Notes: generated by a model from the sequence alone, not told the origin. A stretch of 64,000 bases of DNA from Spirochaetales bacterium (GCA_024233935.1 JACKOY010000017.1:27096-91095), one strand, 5' to 3'. Numbered from the stretch's first letter, positions 3,772-41,077 are shown. Translations and numbers: made by a program.

Positions 3772-3817
3772 TTGCGCTTGTGTCCCGGCTGTCGCCGGGC
3801 AGCCTGCCACGAAATTC

Positions 3818-6568: not shown

Positions 6569-6591
6569 AGGAGTACCCATCGGGCTGCACC

Positions 6592-7089: not shown

Positions 7090-7111
7090 AAGAGACCCGA
7101 AGCGCTCAAGA

Positions 7112-7996: not shown

Positions 7997-8121
7997 GACC
8001 CCTCTCCCGGTGGCTCAACAGCAGTTTCAGCGGTGCTTCGGAGGGTCAAGCCTTCGTGTCTGATGCCGGGCCCGACGCCAAAATCGCTTGCAGCCCGGAA
8101 GATGATTATCCCAATTCAGCG

Positions 8122-11361: not shown

Positions 11362-11378
11362 CAAGCTCGCGCATTGCT

Positions 11379-12083: not shown

Positions 12084-12593
12084 GTTGACTACCAACAATG
12101 GACGAATGGCACGTGCGGGAAAATGTAATACTGCAGCATATTAATAAAAAATAAATTGTGTGACCAGATATGTCATAACCAGCGTGGCAACGGGTTGAGG
12201 CGACCTGAGACAGAACCGGGCACACATCGCTCACGAAAGGTTAACCCTTCGCGGGCGCCGGGCAAAACTGCATGCAGGTTCGGGCTCCACTCACGAAACG
12301 CCGTTCAGCTTTCACCGGCATCGTCCTGCCGACCCGCCGCAAAGAAAATGCTTCGCCTCATTCGGCCCCGGGCACCAGGAGCCCGGGCGTTGCGAAGCCA
12401 CATCGGCGCCATGTCCGCAAACACGGCCGGCGTCGAGGAGGGCTGCTCCGGGCCCGTCCCTTGAGCATGCGACCGACCCTCCGGCGCGGATCGCCCTTTT
12501 CACCGGCCCCGGCGCGTTCCTGCTGCGACCGGAAACCTGTTGAATATCATAAATCTTCTCTTGCGTTGCGGGCTGCACGTGCGGGCTTGAACA

Positions 12594-13202
12594 ATGGATG
12601 CGGGACGACTTATTCTCAGACTACTCACGGACGAAACGCTGCGGGACCAGGTGTTCTATCTACTGGTTCTCATCGCGGTAGTTTCCACCATTCTCAGTAT
12701 TACGGCCACCTGGTTGAATTTTCTCAAGACCAGGCTGGAACGGGAGAAGTGGAAACACGAGAAGGAAAGCTGGAAGATCAATCTCATAAGCCAGGTGGAC
12801 CTGGATTTGTTTAAGAAGCGTCTGGAAAGCTATCCGCTGATTATGCAGACCCTGAGCCCCCTGTCGGACTACATGCTGGACCAGATCCCACGGAGCACTT
12901 TAAAGAAAGTGGCCACGGAACTTCATCGGGCGGCGTACGGGGAGCCGGGCCTGTTTATGGATTCGGACACGCGCAAGGAGATCGTGAAGTTGCGCGACCT
13001 GTGTCAGCGTTTTGCCGCGGCGCCTGACAGGGGAGACCGCTCCCGATTGCGACGTGAGTTGCTGCGCCGTCGTACGGATGTGATTGAACGTCTGCGACGC
13101 GATCTCGGCCACCGCAGTATCTGGCGCCCGGACCTCGAGGAGTTTCTATCGCTGAGCGACGAGAAAGCCCGTAGCGCGTTACCCGCAGGTCACCGGGCCT
13201 GA
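12594..13202 (+). CDS. Hypothetical membrane-anchored coiled-coil protein (202 aa)
   Basis: ATG at 12594. One N-terminal TM (VFYLLVLIAVVSTILSITATWLNFL), then a charged coiled-coil-like stretch. No recognisable domain. Confidence 0.4.
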   Translation: MDAGRLILRLLTDETLRDQVFYLLVLIAVVSTILSITATWLNFLKTRLEREKWKHEKESWKINLISQVDLDLFKKRLESYPLIMQTLSPLSDYMLDQIPRSTLKKVATELHRAAYGEPGLFMDSDTRKEIVKLRDLCQRFAAAPDRGDRSRLRRELLRRRTDVIERLRRDLGHRSIWRPDLEEFLSLSDEKARSALPAGHRA

Positions 13203-13303
13203 AGTGACCGGCCCGCTTCAGCGCCAACCTGAAGATAAGCGGAGTCTGTTTCTTGACGGCCGCCGGGATGCCCTTCAGCGTGTCGCGGCCGGGAGGCCGA
13301 AAC

Positions 13304-14017
13304 ATGAGCGCAGATGCGAACGAGACCCAGTATATCGACATTGATGGCGAAGCACCGCGGGTCGATGACGCTGTCTTGAGCCGGCACAGCATCCGCGACT
13401 ACAGCAATCGGCCGGTGCCACGCGAAACTCTGGAAGAGTTATTCGAGCTGGCACTGCGGGCTCCCAGCTGGAAGAATTCCCAGCCCTGGCGTATCTATGT
13501 CTTGACCGGCGCTACCCGCGATCGGGTCGCCGCTTCGCTTGTAAAAGCCGCCCGGGAAACGCAGTCGTCACAACCGGACTTTGAATGGCCCGCAGCCTAT
13601 CCGGCCGACGCCAGGCGGCGTATGTTTGATCTCGGCATGCGGGTCTATGAGGCGGCCGGAATTGAACGAAAGGACAAGGCGGCCCGCGACGAATTTATGC
13701 TGCGCAATTTCAATTTCTTTGGTGCTCCGGTGGGCGTGTTTATCACGACCACCTTCGAACCGAATTACTATGTCGCGCTCGACCTGGGTTGCCTGTTGGA
13801 ATCGATCATGCTTCTGGCCCGGGCGCGCGGCCTGGCTACCTGTCCGCAGGCCGCGCTGGGCGCTTTCCCGGAGGTCGTGCGTCGAGAGCTTGCGTTGTCG
13901 GACGCGGAGCGCGTGGTATGCGGGCTCAGCATGGGCTATGCCACACCGGATTCGAAGCTCAATCGCTTTCATTCGCCGCGGGCGCCGCTCGCAGAACTGC
14001 TTCAATTTCGAGAGTAG
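13304..14017 (+). CDS. Nitroreductase-family NAD(P)H-flavin oxidoreductase
   Basis: GGGAGG sits 8 nt upstream of ATG 13304. LSRHSIRDYSNRPVPRETLEELFELALRAPSWKNSQPWRIYV is the classic nitroreductase N-terminal FMN-binding pattern. Confidence 0.8.
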   Translation: MSADANETQYIDIDGEAPRVDDAVLSRHSIRDYSNRPVPRETLEELFELALRAPSWKNSQPWRIYVLTGATRDRVAASLVKAARETQSSQPDFEWPAAYPADARRRMFDLGMRVYEAAGIERKDKAARDEFMLRNFNFFGAPVGVFITTTFEPNYYVALDLGCLLESIMLLARARGLATCPQAALGAFPEVVRRELALSDAERVVCGLSMGYATPDSKLNRFHSPRAPLAELLQFRE

Positions 14018-14157
14018 GAGTTCGCGCGGGGATGCGGCGTCGCGGCCGGACCCGCTTCGAAGCAGGATCCGATTCGGTGATCCTCACGGTCGTTTTTCTT
14101 TTTGTAGCAGGGGGAGGCAATGCTTGCTTTCGTAGTGCGGAGCAGCTTTTTCGTCCC

Positions 14158-14583
14158 ATGAATCTTCCGGGCCCTGTACCTCTCTCCTTGCTTTTGTTTC
14201 TGTTCTGGACTTTGCTTCTCGCACTCATCACGGTGTCTTACCGCGGTCTTCTGGTCTTTTCCGGTCAGAAACGCATTCACGAGTTCCCGGCCGATCAGCC
14301 CCACGGTAAGGACTGGTACCGTCGCCTGATGCGAGCTCATCTGAATTGCCTGGAGAACTTGCCCGTGTTTGCGACTCTGATCCTCCTCGGGCTCTTCATG
14401 AATCGTACGCAGCACTTCGAGCAGTTTGTACTGTTGATTCCTGCCTTTCGTGTCGTGCAATCCACAACCCACGTGATTTCCGGCGGCCCCATCGCAGTAA
14501 CGATTCGCTTCAGTTTCTACTTCTTGCAGATCGCTATGCTGGTCTGGATCGGTTTGGGGCTGCTTGGTCTGGTGGGTTATTGA
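14158..14583 (+). CDS. MAPEG-family membrane protein (141 aa, 4 TM)
   Basis: Four hydrophobic helices. The RAHLNCLENLPVFATLILLGLF region resembles the MAPEG conserved core. It ends 7 nt before the next gene. Confidence 0.55.
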   Translation: MNLPGPVPLSLLLFLFWTLLLALITVSYRGLLVFSGQKRIHEFPADQPHGKDWYRRLMRAHLNCLENLPVFATLILLGLFMNRTQHFEQFVLLIPAFRVVQSTTHVISGGPIAVTIRFSFYFLQIAMLVWIGLGLLGLVGY

Positions 14584-29690: not shown

Positions 29691-32600
29691 TTAAGCCGCC
29701 TCCGCATTCTTCCGAATCCCCGCAACCACGGCCAGTATTCCTTCGACCTGCGGCTTCATGAAGAGGCCGGTCACGCCTTCGGAGTGCAGATCAGTGAATG
29801 GTGCCTCAAACAGCGCCTCCGGCTCGATCGCTCCATTCTGGGTCAGGTAGTTGATAATGCGGTCCAGGAAGGCGATCTGGTCGGCGGTCAGGTTCCCTGC
29901 CGCGAGGAAGTCGGCGAAGGCGGCCTTGGCTGCCATCCTATCGAGGCCCACGATACTGCGGATAAACAGGCCGAGCGGCTGGTCGCCGATCTCGCGCTCG
30001 TAGTCCTCCCGCGTCCCAAGAGCGCCGTCCTGCGAGAATAGAATCGCTTCAAGGTGCTGAAGGTCCGTGCTCGTCAACGGCTGGTTTTGCTTCAGCTTCC
30101 AGATTGTTGTATCGTCGTGTTCCAGTCCGCGAATGAGCTTCTCCACCCGACGTCGGTAGTTTTCCAGCCCCGGTTCGCGTTTGACCAGATCATCGCGCAT
30201 GATGACCGCGCCCGCCTCGTCGGTGAAGTCGGTGTACACGAGGCGCTGTGCGGCGGCTTTATCCAGCAGTTGAACAACCTCGCGCAGCTCGGATCGAATC
30301 GCTTCAATCTTCGGAACGGTGGCCGCTTTCCAGAAGGCGTCGTCTTGAAGCGGCCGGATCGTTGGCATGCGCTTCTCGATCGCCGGGATGTTCTTTTTCA
30401 GCTCCAGATTCATCGCGAGATCGCGAACCTTTGATTCCAGGGCGTCACGTCGCGAGCCCTCCGTGAGCATTTCGATTTGCAGATTGTGGATTAAAAGATC
30501 GAAGCGGGCGGCCTCCTCACTCTGATACGGATGAGAGATCAGCGGACTTACGTGCTCGGTTAGTTCCGCGACGTCAGATTCAGCGACCTTGTCCCACGCC
30601 TTGCGATCCATATATGGTCGAACAAATTTTTGATGAGGTCGCACCACGAAGCTTTCAGGATCCAGAGCGGCGACCTCATGATGCATTTGATCGAGCAATT
30701 GGCCGGCGTACCTGCGGTGTTCCAGATCATCACGCATGGCGCTTCGACGAATTTCCAGCGCCAGTATGAGCCGGCGATTGAAGATCTTCTGAGAGAGCGA
30801 AGGCTGCGCCACGGTCTCCATGCCTTTGGGATGCGCGTCGAAGAAGTCCAGGTTCCCGCAGAAGTCGAAGATCAGGAAGTGCTCTTTGTGCTGGCCCGGG
30901 CCAAATAGGTCTTCGCAGAGGCGCGTTCCGCGTCCGACCATCTGCCAGAACTTCACACGGGAGCGCACCATCTTGAAGAATACCAGGTTCACCACCTCGG
31001 GAATGTCCACGCCGGTATCGAGCATGTCCACCGATGCCGCAATGTGGGGGTCCGAGTTCTTCTTCTCGAAGTCTTCCATGAGGGAATCGACGTACTTGAC
31101 CTGGTTGTGGACCACGCGCATGAATTTTCCGGCGAGGTGAGGGTACAGCAGGTCGAAGCGGTCGCGGACAAATTCTGCGTGCCGCTGGTTCCTGGCGAAG
31201 ATGATGGTCTTGCCCAACCGTTCCCCGCCCGCGACTTTGATGCCGTGGTCCATGACATGGGCGAGCACGCGGTCCACTGTGTCCGCGTTGAAGAGCCAGC
31301 TATTCAGTGCGGATGAGTCGATTTCTTCCGGCAGGGTCCCGGTGTCCTCGTCGAAGAACTTCTCTTCGTATTCTTCCTGCTCCTCTTCGGTCAGGTCCGC
31401 GTACTTGATGCCCTCCCGCTGGAACTTGAGCGGGACGACGGCAGCCAGCGGCGGACAGAGGTACCTGTCGTTCACGCCTTCATCAAGGCCGTAGGCGAAC
31501 GTGGGCTGGCCCTCTTCGAGTTCCAGGAACTGATAGGTGTTGCGGGAGACCTCGTCGCGTGGTGTGGCGGTCAGGCCGATGATGAGACTGTCGAAGTAGT
31601 CGAAGATGGCGCCGTACTTTTTGTAGACGGAGCGGTGGACTTCATCGAGCCAGATGAGGTCGAAGTAGCCGGGGCCGAAGCGGGCCTGCCCTCCGGTTTT
31701 GCGCTCATCAATCGCATTCATGAGCGTCGGATAGGTGGAGATGACGACGCGGCTGTTGTCGTCCTCCTTCTCATCGAGCAGGTTCACGAGCGATGCATTT
31801 GGCAGGTGCTCCTTGAACGCCTTGTATGCTTGCGTCACGAGCTTGCGACGATCGGCCAGGAAGAGGACGCGGCGGACCCAGTTCGCCTTCATGAGCAGTT
31901 CGGTGATGGCCACAGCGGTGCGGGTCTTTCCGGTACCCATGCTCATGGCGAGCAGGCAGCGGCGACGGCGTTTGGTCAGGTCTTCGGTGACGCGGCGCAC
32001 GGCTTCAATCTGATAGGGACGGTTTACGATACCCTGATTGATGTCGGCCGTGGTGAGGTCCGCGCGCGTTTGCCTGCGATTCACCGCAAGCTGGAGTTCA
32101 TCCCGGGTGAGGAAGCCCTGCACCTGCCGGGGAGGATAGGAAGCCTTCTCGTCCCAGAACCAGGTCTCGTAGCCGTTGGAGTAGAAGATGAGCGGATAGC
32201 GGTCGGTCATCTGTTCCAGGCAGCGGGCATAAAGTTCGGCCTGTCGCTCGCCTTCGCGGGGGCTCTTCTTGGTGCGCTTAACTTCGATGACCGCCAGTGG
32301 AAGGCCATCGTCGCCCCAGAGCACGTAATCGGCGTAGCCCGTCCCGTCGTTCCTTCCCGAAGAGGTCGGCATGCCACGCACTTCGTATTCGCGGACGTTG
32401 GGGCCGTGGGGGTCCCAGCCCGCTTCGCGCAGCATGAGGTCAATGAAGAGGTCGCGGGTTTCGCTCTCGTTGTGGTCGAGCTTCTCGGTCTGCGCAGAGG
32501 CCACTTTCCGGTTCTTCGCCTTCAGAGACTGAAGCTCGGCACGGTAGCGTTCGACTTCCGCGCTGACTTTCGCGAGCGCCTCCTCATGCTCACGCGCCTT

Positions 32601-33095
32601 CGCATCGCGCGCTTCCAGATCCTTCTTGAGCTTCTGGAGTTCGGCGGCGCTCTTCTCGGCGGTCCCGGTTTTGGGTATGAGGTCCGGGTTGAAGGCCGGG
32701 ATGAAGGGCGCGTAGCTGGAGTAGAGTTTGGCAAACCAGGCCAGGAAGAGGTGCAGGTGCTTGAGAAGCAGAATCGCATTCTGAGCTTGCACGCGAAAGC
32801 CCGGATGGACGGCTTGATTGCCCAGCTTGCGGATGGCATTGACCGGCTGGAAGAGCTCAGGTGGCAGCAGGCGTTCCTTGAAGGACGGTTCGTGCATCAT
32901 GGCCGCGAGCGTGCGTTCGTACGGCGGTGTGAGCGAGTTGTCGTTCTCGAAGAGCCAGGTGAGGACGGCTTCGAGAGTGTAGCGGGCGTAGAAGACCGAC
33001 GTGCGCGGGTCGGCGTAGGCACTGACCTCGGCCTTGTTGGCAGAGTCGAAGAGGCCGCCCCAGTTCTGCTGGAGGTAGTCGAAGTTGGAGTTCAT
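29691..33095 (-). CDS. hsdR: Type I restriction enzyme R subunit (EcoKI-like), with EcoEI_R_C-type C-terminal domain
   Basis: MNSNFDYLQ... EcoKI-like N-terminus. Nuclease motif: region ...DYVLWGDDGLPLAVIEVKR. DEAD-box helicase motifs GTGKTRTA and DEVH. 1134 aa. Confidence 0.9.
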   Translation of the reverse strand: MNSNFDYLQQNWGGLFDSANKAEVSAYADPRTSVFYARYTLEAVLTWLFENDNSLTPPYERTLAAMMHEPSFKERLLPPELFQPVNAIRKLGNQAVHPGFRVQAQNAILLLKHLHLFLAWFAKLYSSYAPFIPAFNPDLIPKTGTAEKSAAELQKLKKDLEARDAKAREHEEALAKVSAEVERYRAELQSLKAKNRKVASAQTEKLDHNESETRDLFIDLMLREAGWDPHGPNVREYEVRGMPTSSGRNDGTGYADYVLWGDDGLPLAVIEVKRTKKSPREGERQAELYARCLEQMTDRYPLIFYSNGYETWFWDEKASYPPRQVQGFLTRDELQLAVNRRQTRADLTTADINQGIVNRPYQIEAVRRVTEDLTKRRRRCLLAMSMGTGKTRTAVAITELLMKANWVRRVLFLADRRKLVTQAYKAFKEHLPNASLVNLLDEKEDDNSRVVISTYPTLMNAIDERKTGGQARFGPGYFDLIWLDEVHRSVYKKYGAIFDYFDSLIIGLTATPRDEVSRNTYQFLELEEGQPTFAYGLDEGVNDRYLCPPLAAVVPLKFQREGIKYADLTEEEQEEYEEKFFDEDTGTLPEEIDSSALNSWLFNADTVDRVLAHVMDHGIKVAGGERLGKTIIFARNQRHAEFVRDRFDLLYPHLAGKFMRVVHNQVKYVDSLMEDFEKKNSDPHIAASVDMLDTGVDIPEVVNLVFFKMVRSRVKFWQMVGRGTRLCEDLFGPGQHKEHFLIFDFCGNLDFFDAHPKGMETVAQPSLSQKIFNRRLILALEIRRSAMRDDLEHRRYAGQLLDQMHHEVAALDPESFVVRPHQKFVRPYMDRKAWDKVAESDVAELTEHVSPLISHPYQSEEAARFDLLIHNLQIEMLTEGSRRDALESKVRDLAMNLELKKNIPAIEKRMPTIRPLQDDAFWKAATVPKIEAIRSELREVVQLLDKAAAQRLVYTDFTDEAGAVIMRDDLVKREPGLENYRRRVEKLIRGLEHDDTTIWKLKQNQPLTSTDLQHLEAILFSQDGALGTREDYEREIGDQPLGLFIRSIVGLDRMAAKAAFADFLAAGNLTADQIAFLDRIINYLTQNGAIEPEALFEAPFTDLHSEGVTGLFMKPQVEGILAVVAGIRKNAEAA

Positions 33096-33110: not shown

Positions 33111-33485
33111 CTACATAACCCTTTCGCTCTTGTGCAACACTGCTGCCAGTTTCTTGTCCAGCGTCCAAACGCGCAACTGCCGACGGCGTGCCTCCGCGAG
33201 CAATACAGCGTCGACCAGACCAATACCCTTTGCGCCGAACTTTTTCTCAAAGGCAAGACGCCCGCCTTCCACAATACCCTGGTTGCTCTGGGGGTCCTGG
33301 AGAGTCTCCCAGTAGGCGGTGACAAAGTCGGCCTCGGCCGTGCTCCTGCAGCCCTGCAGCAATTCACCAAAGACGAGCGCATGGACCCGGATCTGGCCGG
33401 CTTCGATCAATTCCCGGAGCTGTGTAAACACCGGCTCTTTGCGGCGAAAGAACTCCACCCAAACGGACGTATCAACCAGAATCAC
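33111..33485 (-). CDS. vapC: PIN-domain toxin VapC
   Basis: MILVDTSVWVEFF... 124 aa. 4-nt overlap with the upstream antitoxin. Ends 15 nt before the hsdR start. Confidence 0.8.
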   Translation of the reverse strand: MILVDTSVWVEFFRRKEPVFTQLRELIEAGQIRVHALVFGELLQGCRSTAEADFVTAYWETLQDPQSNQGIVEGGRLAFEKKFGAKGIGLVDAVLLAEARRRQLRVWTLDKKLAAVLHKSERVM

Positions 33486-33700
33486 GTGACTTTCCGGTTC
33501 AAAGCCCTCACCTGCGCCGCCGTAAAGTCAGTCCGAAACTGAAGGGGCCGCCGATTCAGCTTCTCGTTCAGGCGGCGCAGCTTCGCCAGCCGCACCCATT
33601 CACCGAGCGCCAAATTCAGGGATTCCGTAATCGTTTCCCCGCCCGTATATTCCTGAACCTCACGGACCAGTTCATCCGGAAGTAGTGCGGTCACCTTCAT
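33482..33700 (-). CDS. vapB: VapB-type antitoxin (72 aa)
   Basis: MKVTALLPDELVREVQEYTGGETITESLNLALGEWVR... is typical of the small RHH/DUF2191-like VapB antitoxins. ATG at 33700 chosen (the ORF-track start at 33736 adds 12 aa). Confidence 0.6.
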   Translation of the reverse strand: MKVTALLPDELVREVQEYTGGETITESLNLALGEWVRLAKLRRLNEKLNRRPLQFRTDFTAAQVRALNRKVT

Positions 33701-33831
33701 ACTCTGGAGTATACGATAGAGCAGCGTATGCTGCAACGTCTTTTTGAGTGCGCGTGACCGTCACGGCCTCCAGCGGTAGCGCTGGTGCACGCTGATGCGA
33801 AGGTCACGCGGCCTCAAAGAAGACCGGTGCT

Positions 33832-34356
33832 TTAGTGGTTCCGATCGCGGTATTCCAGCAACCCGCGGTCGACGAGAAAAGGCTCAACTCGCAGGCTGAG
33901 CAGCTGATGAAGACCGCATGCTGAAGCGATAGACATCTTCCCTGCTCGGTCTTTGATCTCCTGAGAAATGACCGTTGGGATATCGCCTGTTTTTTTTATC
34001 TTGATAGCCATAGCAAGAATGTACGGGTCCGCTTCCTCGGGTTGGTCTGGTTTGTTGGGGTCGAGAATGTGCCGCGTCTGCGGGTGCTCCAGCACTCTCC
34101 GTACTTCCTCAAAAACCGGCTCAAATCGGGTAGCTTGCTTCTTGTATAGCCTTGCCCAGTGATAGGGAAGGAACCCAGGGTCCGTACCGCCCCGCTTCTC
34201 CAGCTCCGCCACAACCTGTGAAGGATACACCAAGGCATCACTCTGCAGCAGTTCAGTCAACCCCTGAAAGATAGCCTTCTCTCCGGCCTTGCCCACGATG
34301 GCACGTATTTCGCCAAGCGCGGATGTATCGAACACCCAGATCGCCTGACCTGCCAT
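33832..34356 (-). CDS. DUF4411-family PIN-like nuclease (predicted toxin/effector)
   Basis: 174 aa. WVFDTSAL... N-terminal acidic motif of the PIN-like DUF4411. ATG overlaps the stop of the upstream ImmA gene by 1 nt (ATGA). This pairing is recurrent inside type I restriction-modification loci. Confidence 0.65.
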   Translation of the reverse strand: MAGQAIWVFDTSALGEIRAIVGKAGEKAIFQGLTELLQSDALVYPSQVVAELEKRGGTDPGFLPYHWARLYKKQATRFEPVFEEVRRVLEHPQTRHILDPNKPDQPEEADPYILAMAIKIKKTGDIPTVISQEIKDRAGKMSIASACGLHQLLSLRVEPFLVDRGLLEYRDRNH

Positions 34357-35516
34357 CAGGCGAATTTCCCGCCCGCAGCTTCGACCGCGCGCAGGTCAGT
34401 ATGGGAGATTTTAAGATACCCCATCGCATCATCGCGGGTGATGAGTTCTTCCTTCAATGCTGCTACAAAGCCCGCAGCAACGGCCTGTCCGTATTCATCA
34501 CGGCGGATCTCGAGTCGATTCCTTCCACCGCCGCCCCCGCCACGCTTCTTCTCTTCGATATTGCGGGGGATGCTCTCGTACAGGTCCCAACGCGCCACAC
34601 CCCTGTCGATAAGACGCAGGATCGTTGCTGTTACGCTTACGTTGAGCTTGCGCGCGAGCGTGCGCGCTTGACCGTAATCCTGAATTCGTACTGTGTTTCC
34701 GCCCAGCTCCGATCGGATCGTCGCTTGCACAAGCGACCAGGGCAACAAAACGGCCGCGGCGAACCGATCACACCAACGTTCGTGCTCGTCTTCAGCTTTG
34801 GTTCGGATCTGAGCGCGACCGATATCGTGGCATGCTGAATCCGACCGTGTAAGCAAATGTCCCAATTCATGGAGCATGCTGAAGACACGGACAGTCTCCG
34901 GCCAGGCACTGCTAAACACAACCGCCGGGGCATACTCATCCCAGAGTGAAAAGCCCCTCACACCATCCGCTCCAAGCGGTAGCTGAAACGCAAGAACGCC
35001 GAGACCCTCCAGGGCTGCGCGCCAGGCCTTCACCGCAATACTATCCGACTGGAACGCCACCTGGGTTGCGTGGTCGATGCCCAACTTCTTGCGCATGCTC
35101 TCCGCAGCCGATTCGGGATCCGATGCTGAGCTAAAAACAGGAATCTCTGGTTTCTGAACCCCCAGTTCCCTGCGTGTCCAGGAGAGCGTCCCCTGAAGCC
35201 GGCGCACCTCTCGTATTTTGCTCAACTCGTTCTCGCGGAGGAACTCCCTGGTCCTCGTGATAGGGTGCCGGAACTCAATCTTGCGAGCCTCGGCACGCGG
35301 AGGTTCGGCCAGCAACAGGATAGCGGGAGGCCGGTGGAGCTGTGCGGCAAGGTCCTTGAACTTCGTGAGCCCGGGTTGCTCCGTCTCATCAATCCAGGCC
35401 TGAAGCGTTGCGGGCTCAATCTTCAGTCGAGCACACAGCTCCTCCGTGGAATAGCCTGACTTGTCTATTGCCCATTTCAATACCGCTCCGGTAACGGGGA
35501 CCGTGGTTCCTCTCAT
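34356..35516 (-). CDS. XRE-family HTH + ImmA/IrrE-type zinc metallopeptidase (DUF955)
   Basis: N-terminal HTH (GAVLKWAIDKSGYSTEELCARLKIEPATLQAW). HExxH at FSMLHELGHLL. Start placed at ATG 35516 (MRGTT...); the ORF-track start is at 35540. Confidence 0.75.
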   Translation of the reverse strand: MRGTTVPVTGAVLKWAIDKSGYSTEELCARLKIEPATLQAWIDETEQPGLTKFKDLAAQLHRPPAILLLAEPPRAEARKIEFRHPITRTREFLRENELSKIREVRRLQGTLSWTRRELGVQKPEIPVFSSASDPESAAESMRKKLGIDHATQVAFQSDSIAVKAWRAALEGLGVLAFQLPLGADGVRGFSLWDEYAPAVVFSSAWPETVRVFSMLHELGHLLTRSDSACHDIGRAQIRTKAEDEHERWCDRFAAAVLLPWSLVQATIRSELGGNTVRIQDYGQARTLARKLNVSVTATILRLIDRGVARWDLYESIPRNIEEKKRGGGGGGRNRLEIRRDEYGQAVAAGFVAALKEELITRDDAMGYLKISHTDLRAVEAAGGKFA

Positions 35517-35627
35517 AGCGCCGCCACTGCCGATTTGCATTCTTGAATTCTGTCAGCATTCATACCATCATGGACGTCTGACACGATTAACTTCATCAGG
35601 GCTGCCTGCCAACGACAGCTTTGCACA

Positions 35628-36809
35628 TTATGGACCATTGTTTTCATTGAAGTCAAGTTCTCCCTTGAAGGCGCGTTGCAGAAGAGAGTTGAAGAGGTCA
35701 TCGGAAGCCATGATTGCCTTGGCATTGCGAGACCGCACCGCCGCGAGCTTCTCGGTAGCCCGATCCCATGCGGCCTGCAATTCGGCGGGGGGAAGAATCA
35801 GCGCGACATCCTTCAGTCGACCATGGGAAATGAGAGGCTGTCCCGCCTGGCTCTTGTACTGGTTTAGGTCCAGCAGTGTTAAGAGGCGATTCAGGAAGCC
35901 GAGGCTGAACTGATCCCGATTCTCGGCGACATAGAGCGCATTGTCTGAGACCCAGCACGGGCCCGTGGCGTGATAACTATTCCCACAGTAGACGCCGACT
36001 CGCCCGAGGATCACTGTGGGCTCGCTCACAAGTGGCGTCGTCGTGTAGCCAATGATTCCGTTTCCGCCGTACACCGGCACGGGACCTTGCTCACTGAGCG
36101 TTCGATTTCGGATGCTTTCGCCAGACTTAAGTCTCAAAGACTCTGCGAACGGCCGCACTTCCCACCCCTTCGGATTCGTCACCGGGTCCCCGAACATATC
36201 CAGAAACACCGACTGGAGCAATTCATCCAGCCTGGCGATGACCTGCTTCCGCTTGCGGCGGATGGAGTCGGCCTTGTCGAGAACCGCGGCGATTCGCTTC
36301 TGGATGTCGAGGGGCGGGAGGGGGATTGGCAGCCCTTTGAGTTTGGTGCTGTTCACACCCGGCTGCGTCGAACCACTTGCCGCGCCGACCACAGCTCCCC
36401 AGTACTGCGGCGTCTGGAAGAAGTAGCTCAAGAAGCCAGGGTCCAAGCGCTGCAGGTCCGGGCGAACCCGTATAAGGTACGAGGCAAAGACGGCATCCTT
36501 GGGGCACTCCCTGATGAGAAACGATTTCCCCGTTGTGGCCCCGGTACGAGCGAAAACGATGTCGCCGGGTGCTAGCCTGTACTTCGCCACGTCTTCCCGC
36601 GAACATCGGCAGTACGGAACGCCACTCCAATCAACATGGCCATTCTGGATGTCCGTTATGCGGAGAAAGCGAGGCCCGACCTCCGCTGCCGAAGCAGACT
36701 CCGTATGTCCGTAGTCAATCTTCTCGGAAAGCTCGCTCAGGCTATGAGTAGGCCAGCTCAAGGTGTGCCCCCTTGGTCGGAATCCAAGCTCTCCATGAAA
36801 CACCGCCAT
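35628..36809 (-). CDS. hsdS: Type I restriction-modification specificity subunit, two target-recognition domains
   Basis: N-terminal ...LSWPTHSLSELSEKIDYG (HsdS opening). Central conserved spacer LPPLDIQKRIAAVLDKADSIRRKRKQ. C-terminal repeat ...LPPAELQAAWDRATEKLAAVRSRNAKA. The start is uncertain because the first 52 nt overlap the upstream gene. Confidence 0.85.
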   Translation of the reverse strand: MAVFHGELGFRPRGHTLSWPTHSLSELSEKIDYGHTESASAAEVGPRFLRITDIQNGHVDWSGVPYCRCSREDVAKYRLAPGDIVFARTGATTGKSFLIRECPKDAVFASYLIRVRPDLQRLDPGFLSYFFQTPQYWGAVVGAASGSTQPGVNSTKLKGLPIPLPPLDIQKRIAAVLDKADSIRRKRKQVIARLDELLQSVFLDMFGDPVTNPKGWEVRPFAESLRLKSGESIRNRTLSEQGPVPVYGGNGIIGYTTTPLVSEPTVILGRVGVYCGNSYHATGPCWVSDNALYVAENRDQFSLGFLNRLLTLLDLNQYKSQAGQPLISHGRLKDVALILPPAELQAAWDRATEKLAAVRSRNAKAIMASDDLFNSLLQRAFKGELDFNENNGP

Positions 36810-37396
36810 TTGCGAATGACAGGCGCAAGTCGCGACAGGATGCGGATAAGTACGAAGGTGCGATAGTTCTGATAGCTATCTCCCGCAAGCTCAAGATCGC
36901 GTGTCAGTCGTGCCTCCTTGTCTTCGTCAGTGTGCAGTGTCTCGCCGAATAGCTGGGTTTCCAGAGTTTGCCGAATCGCCTGCCCGTGAAACAAGCCAAG
37001 TTTGTAGTCCCCCGGCTCCGACTCTGGATGAATTAGAGCCGATTCTTGCAATTCCAGGATAGCTTTCCAGCGGCTCCGCAGGGCCGCGCTATGGTCCTTG
37101 ATTTCCTGCGGGAATCGACCATCCTGAATCCAATCGTCAGCTGCCGCAATCGACGTCGGCTCTTTGCGCTGATACAGGAAGCGCAGCCGCCGGAGGGTGT
37201 TGTGCAGCGATTCGGTTAGGCTAACGAGGCTTTCGTCAGCGTCGAGTGCCAACTGATATTCACCGCTAAATGTCATCCCGAACTTCTTCTTCCGCGGTGG
37301 CGTATAGTTCGCGATGATTCGGTCCTCTTCAAACTCACGGACGCGACGCAGAAACGCATCAAGGCGAAATGCTGTTTCATTGGGGCTGCGACTCAC
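36758..37396 (-). CDS. Hypothetical 212-aa protein, translationally coupled (ATGA) to the upstream GmrSD-like gene; no recognisable domain
   Basis: The ORF has coding-like composition. Its ATG overlaps the stop of the DUF262/DUF1524 gene. It is predicted soluble and charged. Its function is unknown. Confidence 0.5.
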   Translation of the reverse strand: MSRSPNETAFRLDAFLRRVREFEEDRIIANYTPPRKKKFGMTFSGEYQLALDADESLVSLTESLHNTLRRLRFLYQRKEPTSIAAADDWIQDGRFPQEIKDHSAALRSRWKAILELQESALIHPESEPGDYKLGLFHGQAIRQTLETQLFGETLHTDEDKEARLTRDLELAGDSYQNYRTFVLIRILSRLAPVIRKWRCFMESLDSDQGGTP

Positions 37397-37422
37397 TTCA
37401 ACATCCCCGCCAGTTCGTTCAG
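37391..37422. repeat. Copy A of a 32-nt direct repeat (3' end of the GmrSD-like gene); pairs with 39597..39628
   Basis: ACTCACTTCAACATCCCCGCCAGTTCGTTCAG differs from ACTCACTTCAGCATCCCCGCCAGCTCGTTCAG by 2 substitutions, both synonymous. On the minus strand both copies encode ...LNELAGMLK*. Confidence 0.8.
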
Positions 37423-39591
37423 GCGAGTTGGCCCCACCAGGTCAGAGAAGATGCGCTCCGCCCTTTGTACCACCAACGCTTTGAACCGTTCGCGGTTCTC
37501 CTCTTCAAACCAATCATGCTTATTCGTTGAGATGTTCTTCCAACCCTCCACGGTATCGGTAGCGATATGGGATGCATTCGCCAGATCGTCATCATCACAG
37601 AGTCGGTACCACTGCAACCTTCTCTTCACCGACAAATGCCGACCCTCGAACCGGAGTTTGTCGCCGGGAGCCAGGTCCTGGTCGCTTCGGTTCAGTTCTT
37701 TCGGCCATACGCGCAGATTGCCAATGCTTCCTTGCAGAAGGTATCTCATCGTAACGTCATCCCAAAAGGCCCTGGGGATGTCTCTGATCCCACGCATGTT
37801 CACACTGGCCGATGGGACAATATGATCAAGATCGTAAGGTGTGTCCTCTCGGCGCAGTTGGAAGGCCGCCGGGTCGTAACCCCCGTACCAGCGATTGATC
37901 CAGGACCGCTGAACGTAGAGCAGAGCGTCACCGGAAGACTTGAGCATTTCGCTGAAGACACTATCGCCAACAGGGCGCAGGCCAGTAGCATACTGTTCGG
38001 TTGAGAGCACCTGAAAGCCTATGCGTTCCTCGTCGTTCGTTCTTTTCAAAACTGCATCATAGATCGCTTCAAACATGCCCTCGGTTTTTGCAGGCGCGCT
38101 ACGGGCCACCCGGAAAATGGCGCGAACCAGGCTTTCCCGTGCTCTGTGTCCCCCGCGGCCAAAAAAGAAGTGCATATAGAGCGCAAGCCGTATCAGGTCA
38201 TTCCTCACCAAGTCGGGAGAGATATCTTTCCCGTACACGCAGGCACAAGCCACGTGCCAATAATGCCAGTCGAGTCTGGCCACCAACGGAATCGGGAGGC
38301 CGGGATCATCCCCACCCTTGTCCGGCGCGTACAGAATGGCATTGCGACATTGGATAAGCGACTCGGTGAAAGGTCCTTTTCTGTGGTGCCCGGCGTATAC
38401 GGCGCGCAACTGGGCAATGACCTGGTCTATATCATGCTGGTCGCCGGTGAAGATGCGGTTGTACTGCTTGCTATTGAGCGCAACTACATCGGGGGCGCGA
38501 TCCGCCGGCTCTTCCTCTTCTTCTTGTTCTTCATCGTTGCCTATCAACGATTCCGCTGCCGACCCGCTTGTGGCAGCCATTGCCAGTCGTAGAGAAAGAT
38601 GCACGATTCGCAATGGTGTCATCAGCCGACCGAATTCCCGATTCGCAAAAACCGTCCACACCATGTCGTGGAACTCGGGCCATTTCATCTTGAGGGCGGA
38701 GTAGAATAGTTCATCGGGGCCCATCACGACACCCTGAGAATTGAGGCGATTGAAAGCAGTGTTCAAGTCACCGATATTCGACAGATTGTAAACGATATGG
38801 ATCGGAATGCGCGCCTCACGCAAAACCTGAATCGCACGCGTCAATGAGCTCAGTCGTGCCCGTAGAGCTTCGACATTCTCTACGTAGCGAGAACGAAGGC
38901 TGGGATGCAGATGTTCGATTTGCAAGGGATCAAAGGGGTCGGCTTCCGAAGCATGCGCCAGCCATTCCGCAACAGGCACCGGTAGCTTGGCCGCCAACGG
39001 AAATGACCGGAGCAACATTGATCCGGAGTCTTGCTGGAAGGCGTGCCGATTGGAGAATCCGAGTGGCTCCAGCATCTCAATCTCTTTAGGATGATCGTAG
39101 GGAATAGTTCCTCCCCACGGTCGCAGGGTTGTCGTCACATAGAACGCGAGATCGCTCTCGCCATGGTCCGCTTCCCCTATATCGACCCAAAGCCTTTCAA
39201 TCGCACCCACTCTGGTATCTCGAAATCCCAACGAGACGGCAATGCTCCTTTGCTGACCGTCGAGAATGAAGACCTCTTGGCCGGTGAGCGCTCGTGAAGA
39301 GTGCGCGCTATCCCTCACAGACGATTGCAGGGAGCGAATTCGCAGGTTGCTTTCGGCGAAGTTCTCTGCGGGGCACAACAACAAGGAACCAATCGGGAAT
39401 CCTCGAAACAACGAATCCCACAGCCGCGACAGCCTGTCCTCATCCCAGACTGCATCCCTTTGAAATGCAGGCAGCTTGAGCAGTGCGTCTTCGCCGTCGT
39501 TGATTTCGGCCGCCAACTCCTGTATCCCAATGCTGGCAAGACTCTGCCGGTCCCGAAGTATTCTGGCGAGGTCAAATTCCGAACTTGTCAT
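37393..39591 (-). CDS. GmrSD-family type IV (modification-dependent) restriction endonuclease-like protein: DUF262 (ParB-like NTPase) + DUF1524 (His-Me finger nuclease)
   Basis: N-terminal LPAFQRDAVWDEDRLSRLWDSLFRGFPIGSLLL is the DUF262 signature. C-terminal DLDHIVP...GNLRVWPKELNRS is the DUF1524/HNH-like motif. 732 aa. Confidence 0.75.
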   Translation of the reverse strand: MTSSEFDLARILRDRQSLASIGIQELAAEINDGEDALLKLPAFQRDAVWDEDRLSRLWDSLFRGFPIGSLLLCPAENFAESNLRIRSLQSSVRDSAHSSRALTGQEVFILDGQQRSIAVSLGFRDTRVGAIERLWVDIGEADHGESDLAFYVTTTLRPWGGTIPYDHPKEIEMLEPLGFSNRHAFQQDSGSMLLRSFPLAAKLPVPVAEWLAHASEADPFDPLQIEHLHPSLRSRYVENVEALRARLSSLTRAIQVLREARIPIHIVYNLSNIGDLNTAFNRLNSQGVVMGPDELFYSALKMKWPEFHDMVWTVFANREFGRLMTPLRIVHLSLRLAMAATSGSAAESLIGNDEEQEEEEEPADRAPDVVALNSKQYNRIFTGDQHDIDQVIAQLRAVYAGHHRKGPFTESLIQCRNAILYAPDKGGDDPGLPIPLVARLDWHYWHVACACVYGKDISPDLVRNDLIRLALYMHFFFGRGGHRARESLVRAIFRVARSAPAKTEGMFEAIYDAVLKRTNDEERIGFQVLSTEQYATGLRPVGDSVFSEMLKSSGDALLYVQRSWINRWYGGYDPAAFQLRREDTPYDLDHIVPSASVNMRGIRDIPRAFWDDVTMRYLLQGSIGNLRVWPKELNRSDQDLAPGDKLRFEGRHLSVKRRLQWYRLCDDDDLANASHIATDTVEGWKNISTNKHDWFEEENRERFKALVVQRAERIFSDLVGPTRLNELAGMLK

Positions 39592-39596
39592 GCGTA

Positions 39597-39628
39597 ACTC
39601 ACTTCAGCATCCCCGCCAGCTCGTTCAG
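39597..39628. repeat. Copy B of the 32-nt direct repeat (3' end of hsdM)
   Basis: See copy A. It encodes the HsdM C-terminus ...KELNELAGMLK*. Confidence 0.8.
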
Positions 39629-41077
39629 CTCCTTCTGAATCTCCGCTTCCATCTTCTGGATGTCGGCGATAATCTTCTTGGGCGGGTCGTACTCGATTTC
39701 GTCATGCACGACCTCTTTGTAGCGATTCACGGACAGGTCGTAGTTGTTCTGTCGAATCTCATCCACCGGGACGAAGAAGCTCTGGTCCGTCCGTTTGCGC
39801 TTCTTCTCCCCGTCCAGATTCTGCCAGCGTTTCAGGACGTCCGGCAGGTTGTTGTTCTCGTGCTTCGAAGTATCCAGCGGAGTGCGCTTGTCATCGAGCG
39901 AGAAGCCGTCCGCCTGCATGTCGTAGAACCAGACCTGGTCCGTCCCGCCCGAGTTGGTCTTCGTGAAGATGAGGAAGGCCGTCGAGACTCCGGCGTAAGG
40001 CTTGAAGACTCCGGAAGGCATCTTCACCACCGCCTGAAGCTGATGCTCGTCGATGAGCTTTTTGCGAATCCCCACATGCGCCCGCGACGACCCGAAGAGC
40101 ACCCCGTCTGGCACAATGCAGGCACACCGTCCGCCGACTTTCAGGAGATTCAGGAATAGTGCCAGGAACAAGAGCTCCGTTTTCTTCGTCTTTACTGTCT
40201 GGAGCAGGTCTTTGGCCACCGTGGAGTAGTCGAGCGAGCCCTTGAAGGGCGGATTGGCCAGCACTACCGAGAACTGATCCCGTACCGTTGAAGCCGCCTC
40301 CGAGAGCGCGTCTTTCGAGATGATGTTCGGGTTCTCAACACCGTGCAACAGCATGTTCATCACACCGATGCGGAGCATGGTCACATCGAACTCGATGGCG
40401 TGGAACATGTCCGAGTTGAAGTGTGCCAGCTTCTTCTTGTCGTTGAACATGCCCTCGTGGTTGTCCCGCAGATACTCGCCAAAGGCGATCAGGAAGCCGA
40501 AGGTCCCGGCCGCCGGGTCGCAGACCGTGTCCTCGGGAGTCGGGGCCAGCATATCGACCATGAGGCGGATGATGTGGCGCGGAGTGCGGAACTGACCATT
40601 CTGCCCGGCCGATGCAATCTTCGAAAGCAGGTACTCGTACAGGTCTCCCTTCGTGTCGCGCCGCTCCATCGGGATCTCCGAGAGCGCGGAGACTGTTCGC
40701 TCCAGTAGATGCGGAGTGGGAATCATGAAGGTGGCGTCTTTCATGAGGCGGGCATAGCCGCTGTCTTCGTTGCCGTGCAGGTTCTTCATGAACGGGAAGA
40801 CCTCGGTGCTCATGACTTTGTACATCTCCGCCGCCTCCATGTCCTTGAAGCGGGACCAGCGGAGATGCTGCTGCTTCTTGTTGAAGACCGGGTCTTCAAT
40901 CTGGGGCTTGCCGAGAGTATTGGCCTTCTTCTCCCGCGCGGTATGGATGTCGTCCAGGCGCTTGATGAACAGGAGATACGTAATCTGTTCGATCACGGTC
41001 AACGGGTTTGAGATTCCCCCGGTCCACATGCCTTCCCAGAGGCGGTCTATCTTACTGCGGAGTTCTCCGGTGATCAT
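39599..41077 (-). CDS. hsdM: Type I restriction-modification N6-adenine DNA methyltransferase subunit
   Basis: MITGELRSKIDRLWEGMWTGGISNPLTVIEQITYLLFIKRLDD (HsdM N-domain). AdoMet motif I: DPAAGTFGFL. Motif IV: NPPF. 492 aa. Confidence 0.9.
   Translation of the reverse strand: MITGELRSKIDRLWEGMWTGGISNPLTVIEQITYLLFIKRLDDIHTAREKKANTLGKPQIEDPVFNKKQQHLRWSRFKDMEAAEMYKVMSTEVFPFMKNLHGNEDSGYARLMKDATFMIPTPHLLERTVSALSEIPMERRDTKGDLYEYLLSKIASAGQNGQFRTPRHIIRLMVDMLAPTPEDTVCDPAAGTFGFLIAFGEYLRDNHEGMFNDKKKLAHFNSDMFHAIEFDVTMLRIGVMNMLLHGVENPNIISKDALSEAASTVRDQFSVVLANPPFKGSLDYSTVAKDLLQTVKTKKTELLFLALFLNLLKVGGRCACIVPDGVLFGSSRAHVGIRKKLIDEHQLQAVVKMPSGVFKPYAGVSTAFLIFTKTNSGGTDQVWFYDMQADGFSLDDKRTPLDTSKHENNNLPDVLKRWQNLDGEKKRKRTDQSFFVPVDEIRQNNYDLSVNRYKEVVHDEIEYDPPKKIIADIQKMEAEIQKELNELAGMLK

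What the first reader, a model, noticed from the sequence alone, without database searches (positions are those of the whole stretch)
36758..39591. GmrSD-like type IV enzyme with a translationally coupled 212-aa orphan protein, inserted between hsdM and hsdS
The 732-aa protein has a textbook DUF262 N-terminus (LPAFQRDAVWDED...GFPIGSLLL) and a DUF1524 His-Me finger C-terminus (DLDHIVP...GNLRVWPKELN).

Its stop overlaps the ATG of a 212-aa ORF (ATGA). That ORF has no motif I can recognise: no HEPN Rx4-6H and no obvious nuclease or NTPase signature. It in turn runs into hsdS.

A two-gene GmrSD-like + unknown partner module is a candidate uncharacterised defence accessory.
Basis: partly seen in the sequence, partly recalled or inferred. 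Interest (0 to 1): 0.65.

Follow-up and report, generated by a model that had tools for sequence, protein, structure and literature searches.

The report
Type IV nuclease nested in type I operon
A restriction enzyme that attacks modified phage DNA, and a small orphan gene, sit inside a classical type I restriction operon, but sequence scars and comparison with other genomes indicate that the two arrived separately and are not a dedicated pair.

Summary
The two ORFs exist at the stated coordinates on the minus strand, packed between hsdM and hsdS. The 732-aa protein is an intact, divergent GmrSD/BrxU-type enzyme. It has a DUF262 domain with QR, DGQQR and FxxxN motifs and a His-Me finger (DH…N…N). 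Its Pfam DUF1524 score is below threshold.

The overlap with the 212-aa ORF is GTGA, not ATGA. orf212 is a real gene and not a piece of hsdS. Across about 15 billion proteins it has one homologue, 36% identical, in Leptonema illini. That copy stands alone, with no GmrSD or restriction genes nearby. Five GmrSD homologues examined (27–49% identical) have no such partner.

A 32-nt copy of the hsdM 3' end lies exactly between the two genes and supplies the nuclease's last nine codons. The same scar delimits unrelated cargo in 6 of 13 related cargo-bearing type I loci, and in none of 55 without cargo. Cargo there includes YhcG nucleases, DUF3800 and VapBC.

I therefore read these as separate insertions into the hsdM/hsdS stop–start junction, not a two-gene module. 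The function of orf212 stays unknown: it is a soluble helical protein with no fold or family match.

The nested type IV enzyme is a known kind of arrangement. The recurring hsdM-tail scar is the more interesting by-product.

The parts
39599..41077 (-). hsdM, the type I methyltransferase subunit (492 aa). It ends ...LNELAGMLK*.
   Evidence: Pfam HsdM_N and N6_Mtase, E 8.7e-61. 80 relatives at 55-67% identity were found in genomes.
39597..39628 (-). hsdM tail, copy 1: the last 9 codons, the stop and GT. It contains the vestigial GTG AGT start of the ancestral downstream gene.
   Evidence: Direct repeat D2, 30 of 32 nt identical to 37391-37422. Both differences are synonymous.
39588..39602 (-). 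Four-codon mini-ORF GTG AGT TAC GCA TGA. It overlaps the hsdM stop (GTGA) and the GmrSD-like ATG (ATGA).
   Evidence: Read directly from the sequence. That it works as a re-initiation relay is inferred.
37393..39591 (-). GmrSD/BrxU-like type IV restriction enzyme (732 aa). It combines a DUF262 NTPase/sensor domain, a family-specific central helical region and a His-Me finger nuclease.
   Evidence: Pfam GmrSD_N at 69.7 bits. PADLOC HEC-05, N-terminus only. PDB BrxU 7p9k, N-terminus. 57 homologues, all with PF03235.
38698..39507 (-). DUF262 (GmrS / ParB-Srx-like) domain, residues 29-298. It carries Q44-R45, D111-G-Q-Q-R115 and F280...N284.
   Evidence: Pfam stretch 29-298. The columns are invariant in A2.
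37681..37845 (-). His-Me finger (DUF1524-like) nuclease core, residues 583-637: PYDLDHIVP ... GNLRVWPKELNRSD (D589, H590, N625, N634, D637).
   Evidence: Pfam GmrSD_C at 19.3 bits, below the gathering score of 23. The residues are invariant in 12 homologues.
37391..37422 (-). hsdM tail, copy 2. It supplies the last 9 codons and the stop of the GmrSD-like gene, and the GTG AGT start of orf212. This is the scar of the insertion.
   Evidence: (E 5e-9). GmrSD homologues end differently.
36758..37396 (-). orf212, a soluble, predicted all-helical protein of unknown function. It has a GTG start overlapping the GmrSD stop (GTGA), and its stop overlaps the hsdS TTG (TTGA).
   Evidence: One homologue, P0059 from Leptonema illini, 36% identical, E 1.5e-22. 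No family or fold match.
35628..36761 (-). hsdS, the type I specificity subunit. It is 377 aa from TTG at 36761 (MSWPT...). The alternative ATG at 36809 gives 393 aa.
   Evidence: Pfam Methylase_S. PADLOC Specificity_I, E 2.6e-72, with profiles starting at residue 17-19 of the long ORF. Gene calls.
33832..35540 (-). HTH-ImmA/IrrE metallopeptidase (394 aa) with an overlapping DUF4411 PIN-like protein (174 aa). This is further cargo between hsdS and hsdR.
   Evidence: Pfam Peptidase_M78, and DUF4411 at a weak 21 bits. PADLOC RmrA, E 6e-22.
33111..33736 (-). VapB-VapC (PIN) toxin-antitoxin pair. This is further cargo.
   Evidence: Pfam VapB_antitoxin (weak) and PIN, E 1.4e-10.
29691..33095 (-). 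hsdR, the type I restriction subunit (1134 aa), with an N-terminal DUF4145 and a C-terminal EcoEI_R_C domain.
   Evidence: Pfam ResIII, HSDR_N, EcoEI_R_C and DUF4145.

Best explanation
This is one type I restriction-modification operon on the minus strand. The gene order is hsdM, GmrSD-like, orf212, hsdS, ImmA/IrrE-DUF4411, vapBC, hsdR. Its internal junctions have collected defence-island cargo.

**The 732-aa protein.** It is a single-polypeptide, modification-dependent (type IV) nuclease of the GmrSD/BrxU kind. By analogy with BrxU, SspE and TgvB, the DUF262 NTPase domain senses modified DNA and licenses the C-terminal His-Me finger to cut it. It would then cover phages whose modified bases escape the type I enzyme.

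**How it got there.** The gene entered at the hsdM-stop/hsdS-start overlap. The recombination duplicated the last 32 nt of hsdM. The duplicate now provides the nuclease's last nine codons, its stop, a Shine-Dalgarno-like GGGGA and the GTG start of the next gene.

**orf212.** It is a genuine but extremely rare gene, seen only in Leptospirales. It was inserted separately at the same junction, two codons into the old hsdS reading frame. It is a passenger, not a dedicated GmrSD subunit. Like its stand-alone Leptonema homologue, it most likely acts on its own. My best guess is a small soluble helical protein with a conserved His/Asp patch (H123, H137, H155, D157, D159) that binds a ligand or metal, or regulates something.

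**Expression.** All four genes are chained by stop-start overlaps (GTGA, ATGA, GTGA, TTGA). HsdS synthesis is therefore probably relayed through translation of the cargo.

**Shown:** the gene identities, motifs, overlaps, the repeat, and the lack of co-occurrence. **Inferred:** the substrate class, the translational relay, the recombination mechanism, and any role of orf212.
For: **Domain and motif evidence for the GmrSD-like enzyme**
- Pfam, PADLOC and PDB matches.
- Invariant catalytic and NTPase residues across 12 homologues.
- The literature reports that GmrSD homologues are frequently nested in type I loci: RloF, TgvAB and Machnicka 2015 (PMC11411939; PMC4619093).

**Operon structure**
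- There is no intergenic space.
- The consensus scans flagged weak terminator-like hairpins inside the coding sequence, and I treated none as an operon boundary.

**Separate acquisition**
- The 32-nt hsdM-tail repeat lies exactly at the GmrSD/orf212 boundary, 30 of 32 nt identical, both differences synonymous, with unrelated sequence upstream.
- The GmrSD homologues have a different native C-terminus.
- In related loci, hsdM-tail copies of 30-115 nt occur only where cargo separates hsdM from hsdS. Counting the window, that is 7 of 14 loci against 0 of 55, Fisher p = 3e-6.
- Those copies bracket unrelated cargo: DUF3800, YhcG nuclease (twice), MazE-PIN and unknown proteins. Wherever the contig extends past it (L042, L045, L087, L098, and the first eight bases in L081), the last copy is followed at once by hsdS; L090 ends at the copy.

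**No partnership elsewhere**
- orf212 has one homologue among 1.84 billion cluster representatives. A profile search adds none.
- That homologue is monocistronic, sits next to IS elements, and has no restriction or GmrSD genes nearby.
- GmrSD homologues P0003, P0004, P0005, P0007 and P0012 lack an orf212-like neighbour.
- No orf212 relative occurs in 80 related type I loci.

**orf212 is a real gene**
- 36% identity over 185 residues, with no frame disruption.
Against: - Co-transcription and 4-nt overlaps are also what a functional pair would look like. TgvAB shows that a type I-embedded GmrSD-like enzyme can need a second protein.
- With only two family members, absence of co-occurrence rests on a single independent observation.
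- The rest of the L. illini genome could not be searched for a GmrSD-like or type I partner elsewhere.
- The order of the two insertions cannot be resolved.
- A donor that already carried GmrSD-tail-orf212 could have delivered both in one final step.
- The substrate of the nuclease is unknown. Its DUF1524 match is below Pfam's threshold.
- The structure models of orf212 are weak (pLDDT 61), so the 'helical bundle' and the His/Asp patch are tentative.
Confidence: 0.6

Rival explanations
1. GmrSD-like plus orf212 form a two-protein type IV system. orf212 acts as an accessory, regulatory or immunity subunit, comparable to TgvA for TgvB or GmrS for GmrD.
For: - The stop-start overlap is GTGA, with no spacer.
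- Both genes lie in the same slot of the operon.
- TgvAB is a precedent for a two-protein GmrSD-like system embedded in a type I operon.
Against: - orf212 has no DUF262 or DUF1524 and no other recognisable domain.
- No co-occurrence is seen in any other genome.
- The overlap sequence is inherited from the hsdM/hsdS junction, not evolved for this pair.
- An hsdM-tail scar separates the two genes.
- Members of this GmrSD subfamily occur as single genes.
Confidence: 0.15
2. orf212 belongs functionally to the type I system, not to GmrSD. It would have been the gene directly downstream of hsdM before the nuclease arrived. It might modulate or guard the HsdMS/HsdR complex, as PrrC does with EcoprrI.
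For: - Sequence after the duplicated hsdM tail is, under a homology-facilitated illegitimate recombination model, the recipient's original downstream sequence. Here that sequence is orf212.
- There is precedent for type I-embedded accessory genes that sense the state of the RM complex (PMC12707154).
Against: - No orf212 relative occurs in 80 related type I loci.
- The Leptonema homologue has no hsd genes nearby.
- The weak collinear resemblance of orf212 residues 120-209 to HsdM residues 209-287 is not significant (hhalign P = 0.26; HMMER E 0.08 in a small set).
Confidence: 0.15
3. orf212 has no function in this locus. It is a decaying hitchhiker or a mis-called ORF, kept open only because ribosomes must traverse it to reach hsdS.
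For: - The family is extremely rare, with two members.
- It has no domain or fold match.
- No sequence variants are available to test selection: the cluster has one member, and the contigs are at least 99.9% identical.
Against: - The homology to the Leptonema protein is full-length and uninterrupted, with blocks of conserved polar residues: NTLRxLRFxY, EPTS, GLFHG, LHxDxDK.
- A 636-nt ORF is much longer than a relay would need. A 4-codon mini-ORF does that job upstream.
Confidence: 0.08

Closest known systems
[quoted passage not shown]
   Same: - GmrSD-family nuclease gene(s) sit inside a type I R-M operon and are co-transcribed with hsd genes.
- It has the DGQQR and His-Me finger motifs.
- A second adjacent protein is present.
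   Different: - TgvA is itself a DUF262 protein and is required for defence. orf212 has no DUF262 or any other known domain.
- tgvAB travels as a pair, with 1,341 hits reported in that paper. orf212 never co-occurs with a GmrSD gene elsewhere.
BrxU (PDB 7p9k) / PADLOC HEC-05 and Eco94GmrSD: single-polypeptide GmrSD enzymes
   Same: - The architecture is an N-terminal DUF262 NTPase with a C-terminal His-Me finger.
- They work as single genes embedded in other defence clusters. The members of this subfamily examined here are likewise single genes.
   Different: - Only about 100 N-terminal residues align with BrxU or HEC-05.
- The central region of about 280 residues is specific to a small subfamily of 57 database proteins.
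- The C-terminal domain falls below Pfam's DUF1524 threshold.
RloF and other 'R-linked ORFs' of Campylobacter jejuni type I loci (Miller et al. 2005, as cited in PMC4619093 and PMC11411939)
   Same: DUF262 proteins and assorted unrelated ORFs are inserted between hsd genes.
   Different: - RloF lies between hsdS and hsdR. Here the insertion is at the hsdM/hsdS overlap.
- Here the insertion is marked by a duplicated hsdM 3' end.
PrrC in the EcoprrI type I locus
   Same: It is an accessory gene nested within a type I operon, and its activity is tied to the RM complex.
   Different: PrrC is an anticodon nuclease with an NTPase domain. orf212 shows no nuclease or NTPase motif and no homology to it.

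Membership tests
GmrSD family (type IV, DUF262 + DUF1524) | N-terminal DUF262 / GmrS (ParB-Srx-like) domain | tested here: met
   Pfam PF03235 at 69.7 bits against a gathering score of 33.2. All 57 homologues carry PF03235.
GmrSD family (type IV, DUF262 + DUF1524) | QR, DGQQR and FxxxN motifs of the NTPase domain | tested here: met
   Q44-R45, D111-R115 and F280/N284 are invariant in 12 sequences. The motifs are as defined in PMC11411939.
GmrSD family (type IV, DUF262 + DUF1524) | C-terminal DUF1524 / GmrD domain recognised by its profile | tested here: inconclusive
   PF07510 scores 19.3 bits, below the gathering score of 23, and only with the C-terminus scanned alone. 3 of 12 subfamily members match at E<=0.01. 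There is no PDB sequence match for this part.
GmrSD family (type IV, DUF262 + DUF1524) | His-Me finger catalytic residues (DH ... N ... N/H) | tested here: met
   D589-H590, N625, N634 and D637 are invariant in A2.
GmrSD family (type IV, DUF262 + DUF1524) | NTP-stimulated cleavage of modified (hmC, ghmC or other) DNA, with no cleavage of unmodified DNA | not testable with these tools
   This needs biochemistry or phage assays.
Two-protein GmrSD-like systems (TgvAB, GmrS+GmrD) | The partner protein carries a DUF262 or DUF1524 domain | tested here: not met
   orf212 has no Pfam, NCBIfam, PADLOC or PHROG hit even at E<=10. Its homologue P0059 has none either.
Two-protein GmrSD-like systems (TgvAB, GmrS+GmrD) | The two genes co-occur across genomes | tested here: not met
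Type I restriction-modification system | Complete hsdM, hsdS (two TRDs) and hsdR in one locus | tested here: met
   Pfam and PADLOC hits over the full length of all three.
HsdS (hypothesis that orf212 is a frameshifted 5' part) | Sequence similarity to HsdS TRD or conserved regions, with hsdS incomplete without it | tested here: not met
   - HsdS profiles start at residue 17-19 of the downstream ORF and cover it to the end.
- orf212 is not hit by an HsdS HMM built from 74 sequences.
- orf212 has its own homologue.
HEPN / other toxin or nuclease folds (for orf212) | Rx4-6H motif or a significant structural match | tested here: not met
   - By eye, neither family member has an Rx4-6H motif (sequences).
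- Foldseek PDB and BFVD give nothing at E<=0.001.
- The models are of low confidence.

The most novel reading that the evidence does not exclude
The hsdM-stop/hsdS-start overlap of this type I family acts as a cargo-capture slot. Each acquisition leaves a copy of the hsdM 3' end (30-115 nt). The copy keeps the downstream gene translationally coupled and can serve as a portable homology arm. Arrays of unrelated defence genes build up this way, with up to three tail copies in L042 and nested fragments in L098. Excision between the repeats should also be possible. In this reading the window shows two stacked captures, and orf212 is a new, uncharacterised defence-island gene. A still more novel reading is also not excluded: orf212 could be a new kind of regulator that links the type IV nuclease to the type I complex.
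Probability: 0.35. Interest if true: 0.6.

Novelty: new member of a known kind. Interest (0 to 1): 0.35.

Why it matters
- A GmrSD-type enzyme nested in a type I operon gives layered defence: type I against unmodified DNA, type IV against modified DNA. This arrangement is already documented, so this locus mainly adds a divergent subfamily member.
- Two things go beyond that. First, orf212 is a clean example of a defence-island ORFan, with two members in 15 billion proteins, that could be tested cheaply.
- Second, the duplicated hsdM tail offers a sequence signature for finding cargo inserted into type I operons. It may also help work out how defence genes move between such operons without a dedicated recombinase.

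Tried and rejected
- **Family searches.** orf212 and P0059 were scanned against Pfam, NCBIfam, PADLOC and PHROGs. Nothing matched, even at E<=10.
- **PDB sequence search.** The two-sequence profile gave only a chance hit at E 0.27.
- **More family members.** I tried phmmer against 1.84 billion representatives, a profile search of 5.8 billion clusters, GTDB genomes, IMG/VR, and phage and plasmid records. Only the Leptonema protein turned up.
- **Fusion partner in longer GmrSD homologues.** The idea was that P0012 (917 aa) carries orf212 as a fused C-terminal domain. hhalign probability was 0.1%.
- **Diverged HsdM fragment.** The alignment is collinear but not significant: hhalign P = 0.26, HMMER E 0.08-1. 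Rejected.
- **DNA mimic or membrane protein.** pI is 6.0 and there is no hydrophobic segment. Rejected.
- **Empty-site variant.** A metagenome scan with the 26-nt junction pattern gave one hit, in an unrelated LuxR-type regulator gene. All ten contigs returned for orf212 are the same strain, and each of the five that reaches upstream of orf212 carries the complete GmrSD gene.
- **Internal promoters or terminators.** The promoter-like count was at chance level. Terminator-like hairpins were more frequent than in shuffles, but all lie within coding sequence and I could not relate any to a gene boundary.
- **Literature.** I searched for hsdM 3'-end duplications flanking inserted genes. Nothing was found in the library. 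This was not an exhaustive search.

Full report
**Anatomy**

All genes of interest are on the minus strand and form one tightly packed block:

| Gene | Coordinates | Notes |
|---|---|---|
| hsdM | 41077-39599 | HsdM_N + N6_Mtase |
| GmrSD-like ORF | 39591-37393 | 732 aa |
| orf212 | 37396-36758 | 212 aa |
| hsdS | 36761-35628 | 377 aa from TTG; a longer ATG ORF starts at 36809 |
| HTH-ImmA/IrrE peptidase | 35540-34356 | |
| DUF4411 PIN-like protein | 34356-33832 | overlaps the peptidase gene |
| vapB-vapC | 33736-33111 | |
| hsdR | 33095-29691 | |

There is no intergenic space between hsdM and hsdS. The consensus scans flagged only weak terminator-like hairpins inside the coding sequence there, and I treated none as an operon boundary. 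Ten public contigs at least 99.9% identical to the window show the same layout. They are annotated as a Leptospiraceae / 'Spirochaetales bacterium' MAG.

**Checking the observation**

The 732-aa protein has the quoted motifs.
- Pfam GmrSD_N (DUF262) matches residues 29-298 at 69.7 bits.
- PADLOC HEC-05 (BrxU-type) models and the BrxU crystal-structure sequence (7p9k) match only the first 100-130 residues.
- The C-terminal domain reaches only 19.3 bits on Pfam GmrSD_C, against a gathering score of 23, when scanned alone.
- In an alignment with the 11 closest homologues (27-49% identity), the NTPase motifs are invariant: Q44-R45, D111-G-Q-Q-R115, F280...N284. So are the His-Me finger residues D589-H590, N625, N634 and D637.
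- I conclude it is an intact, divergent member of the GmrSD family.

The overlap with orf212 is GTGA (GTG start at 37396), not ATGA.

orf212's stop overlaps a TTG that starts hsdS (MSWPT...). HsdS profiles begin there, and 6 of the 9 public gene calls with a complete hsdS place the start there.

**Is orf212 real, and is it part of hsdS?**

- HsdS is complete without it.
- A phmmer scan of 1.84 billion cluster representatives found exactly one other family member. It is a 202-aa hypothetical protein of Leptonema illini DSM 21528, with E 1.5e-22 and 36% identity over 185 residues without frame disruption.
- A two-sequence profile found no more. Neither did scans of GTDB genomes, IMG/VR, phage records or plasmid records.
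- orf212 is therefore a genuine protein-coding gene of a very rare family known only from Leptospirales.
- It has no hit in Pfam, NCBIfam, PADLOC or PHROGs.
- It is soluble, with pI 6.0 and no hydrophobic segment.
- It is predicted to be all-helical, at low confidence: pLDDT 61, pTM 0.55-0.61.
- Fold searches returned only generic helical bundles or nothing.
- Conserved blocks between the two members are FLxRxREFExD, NTLRxLRFxY, EPTS, SAxIHxPxS, GLFHG and LHxDxDKxxRxxDL. They include three His and two Asp. This suggests a binding site, but nothing more can be said.

**Is it a GmrSD partner?**

- The Leptonema homologue is monocistronic. It lies downstream of a lipoprotein-like gene and two IS transposases, beside rpoD-dnaG. 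There is no GmrSD, hsd or other defence gene in 20 kb.
- Conversely, none of five GmrSD homologues examined is followed by an orf212-like gene:

| Homologue | Context |
|---|---|
| P0003 (49% identical) | follows hsdS-hsdR, then a convergent gene |
| P0004 | inside a DUF1156-methylase / SNF2 cluster |
| P0005 | followed by an unrelated 82-aa ORF |
| P0007 | followed by a convergent gene |
| P0012 | followed by a convergent gene |

- tblastn and an orf212 HMM find nothing in these loci or in 80 related type I loci.

**The scar between the two genes**

- The last 32 nt of hsdM are CTGAACGAGCTGGCGGGGATGCTGAAGTGAGT. They comprise nine codons, the stop and GT.
- They recur at the end of the GmrSD-like gene with 30 of 32 identities. 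Both differences are synonymous, and the upstream sequence is unrelated. Within-locus blastn gives E 5e-9.
- Both proteins therefore end LNELAGMLK. The GmrSD homologues end differently, so the nuclease's tail is borrowed from hsdM.
- The repeat includes GTG AGT. In relatives, hsdS starts at the hsdM stop and often begins M-S (for example ATG AGT TGG, MSW...).
- In copy 1 this vestigial start opens a 4-codon mini-ORF. Its stop overlaps the GmrSD ATG.
- In copy 2 the same start has become the start of orf212.
- The present hsdS begins TTG AGC TGG CCT. orf212 therefore sits between codons 2 and 3 of the ancestral hsdS.

**The scar is recurrent**

- I fetched 80 genome loci with HsdM relatives at 55-67% identity.
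- In 55 of 69 evaluable loci, hsdS follows hsdM directly. In 14 loci, including the window, something else comes first.
- Copies of the hsdM 3' end occur downstream only in the second group. All end at the stop codon:

| Locus | Tail copy length |
|---|---|
| L042 | 53 nt and 47 nt (two copies) |
| L045 | 62 nt |
| L081 | 30 nt |
| L087 | 65 nt |
| L090 | 115 nt |
| L098 | 70 nt, plus fragments |
| window | 32 nt |

- That is 7 of 14 loci against 0 of 55, Fisher p = 3e-6.
- The bracketed cargo is unrelated from locus to locus: DUF3800, YhcG/DUF1016 PDDEXK nucleases, MazE-PIN pairs and unknown proteins.
- Wherever the contig continues beyond it (L042, L045, L087, L098, and the first eight bases in L081), the last tail copy is followed at once by hsdS; in L090 the contig ends at the copy.
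- The left breakpoint is fixed at the stop codon. The right breakpoint varies.
- This fits recombination anchored by homology in hsdM with an illegitimate second join. It does not fit a site-specific recombinase. This mechanism is inferred.

**Consequences for the window**

- The GmrSD-like gene is one such capture.
- orf212 lies outside the bracket and was inserted in a separate event. Which event came first cannot be resolved.
- A module that travelled as a unit would not carry an hsdM tail between its two genes.

**How it most likely works**

- The nuclease would act like BrxU, SspE or TgvB. The DUF262 domain binds and hydrolyses nucleotide and senses modified DNA. The His-Me finger cuts (functions as reviewed in PMC11411939 and PMC12707154).
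- Embedding it in a type I operon gives complementary coverage. The same has been argued for BrxU with BREX and for TgvAB with the VPI-2 type I system.
- The chain of overlaps (GTGA, ATGA, GTGA, TTGA) suggests that orf212 and HsdS are made by termination-reinitiation. This is inferred.
- orf212 most likely acts independently of the nuclease, as its Leptonema homologue must. Its biochemical role is unknown.

**Comparison with known systems and verdict**

- GmrSD homologues inside type I loci are well documented: RloF, TgvAB, and Machnicka et al. 2015.
- This enzyme is a new, divergent member of that kind.
- It is not a TgvAB-type two-protein system. The partner lacks DUF262 and does not co-occur with GmrSD genes.
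- The two-gene-module interpretation is not supported, though an interaction is not excluded.
- The recurring hsdM-tail duplication was not found in my limited literature searches. It may be the more useful lead.

Noticed in passing
L042, L045, L081, L087, L090, L098 (hsdM 3' ends and downstream copies; coordinates) and window 39597-39628 / 37391-37422: Direct copies of the hsdM 3' end (30-115 nt, all ending at the stop codon) bracket unrelated cargo inserted between hsdM and hsdS. They occur in 7 of 14 cargo-bearing loci and in 0 of 55 loci without cargo. L042 has three copies in series. L098 has nested fragments.
   Followed up: partly
window 39588-39602 (minus strand): A four-codon mini-ORF, GTG AGT TAC GCA TGA, links the hsdM stop (GTGA) to the ATG of the GmrSD-like gene (ATGA). 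It looks like the vestigial start of the ancestral hsdS, reused as a re-initiation relay.
   Followed up: partly
window 33832-35540 (minus strand): An HTH-ImmA/IrrE (Peptidase_M78) gene has its stop overlapping a 174-aa DUF4411 PIN-like gene. The first matches PADLOC 'RmrA' models (E 6e-22). This putative regulator/toxin pair is nested between hsdS and hsdR. Similar ImmA-like genes sit in the same position in L057, L059 and L072.
   Followed up: partly
window 33111-33736 (minus strand): A VapB-VapC (PIN) toxin-antitoxin pair lies immediately upstream of hsdR. It is a third cargo unit inside the same type I operon.
   Followed up: no
window 32750-33095 (N-terminus of hsdR, minus strand): HsdR carries an N-terminal DUF4145 domain (residues 21-115) ahead of the HSDR_N nuclease domain, and an EcoEI_R_C C-terminal domain.
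   Followed up: no
L022 (JGI contig Ga0307412_10177627), 688-713: The 26-nt junction pattern GAACTGGCGGGGATGCTGAAGTGAGT occurs exactly at the 3' end of an unrelated LuxR/FixJ-type response regulator gene (...VELAGMLK*). The rest of the contig shows no similarity to the window. By my rough estimate an exact 26-mer is not expected by chance, and I cannot explain it.
   Followed up: partly
window 38497-38535 (GmrSD-like residues 353-365): An acidic run, EEQEEEEEPADR, is inserted in the central region of the nuclease. It is shared in part only with the closest homologue, P0003, and is absent from the other ten aligned homologues.
   Followed up: no
orf212 residues 120-209 versus HsdM residues 209-287: There is a collinear but statistically insignificant resemblance: GLFHG/MFHG, LH/LHG, F-VLI/YSLIL, F..SLD/FKGSLD around the NPPF motif region. 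hhalign P = 0.26, so I treat it as chance.
   Followed up: yes
L013 (JGI 3300041085), 3131-14349: A GmrSD-like homologue (P0004) is embedded between a DUF1156 methylase and an SNF2 helicase, in a DISARM-like cluster with DUF4365 genes upstream. This shows that the subfamily also nests in other defence systems.
   Followed up: no
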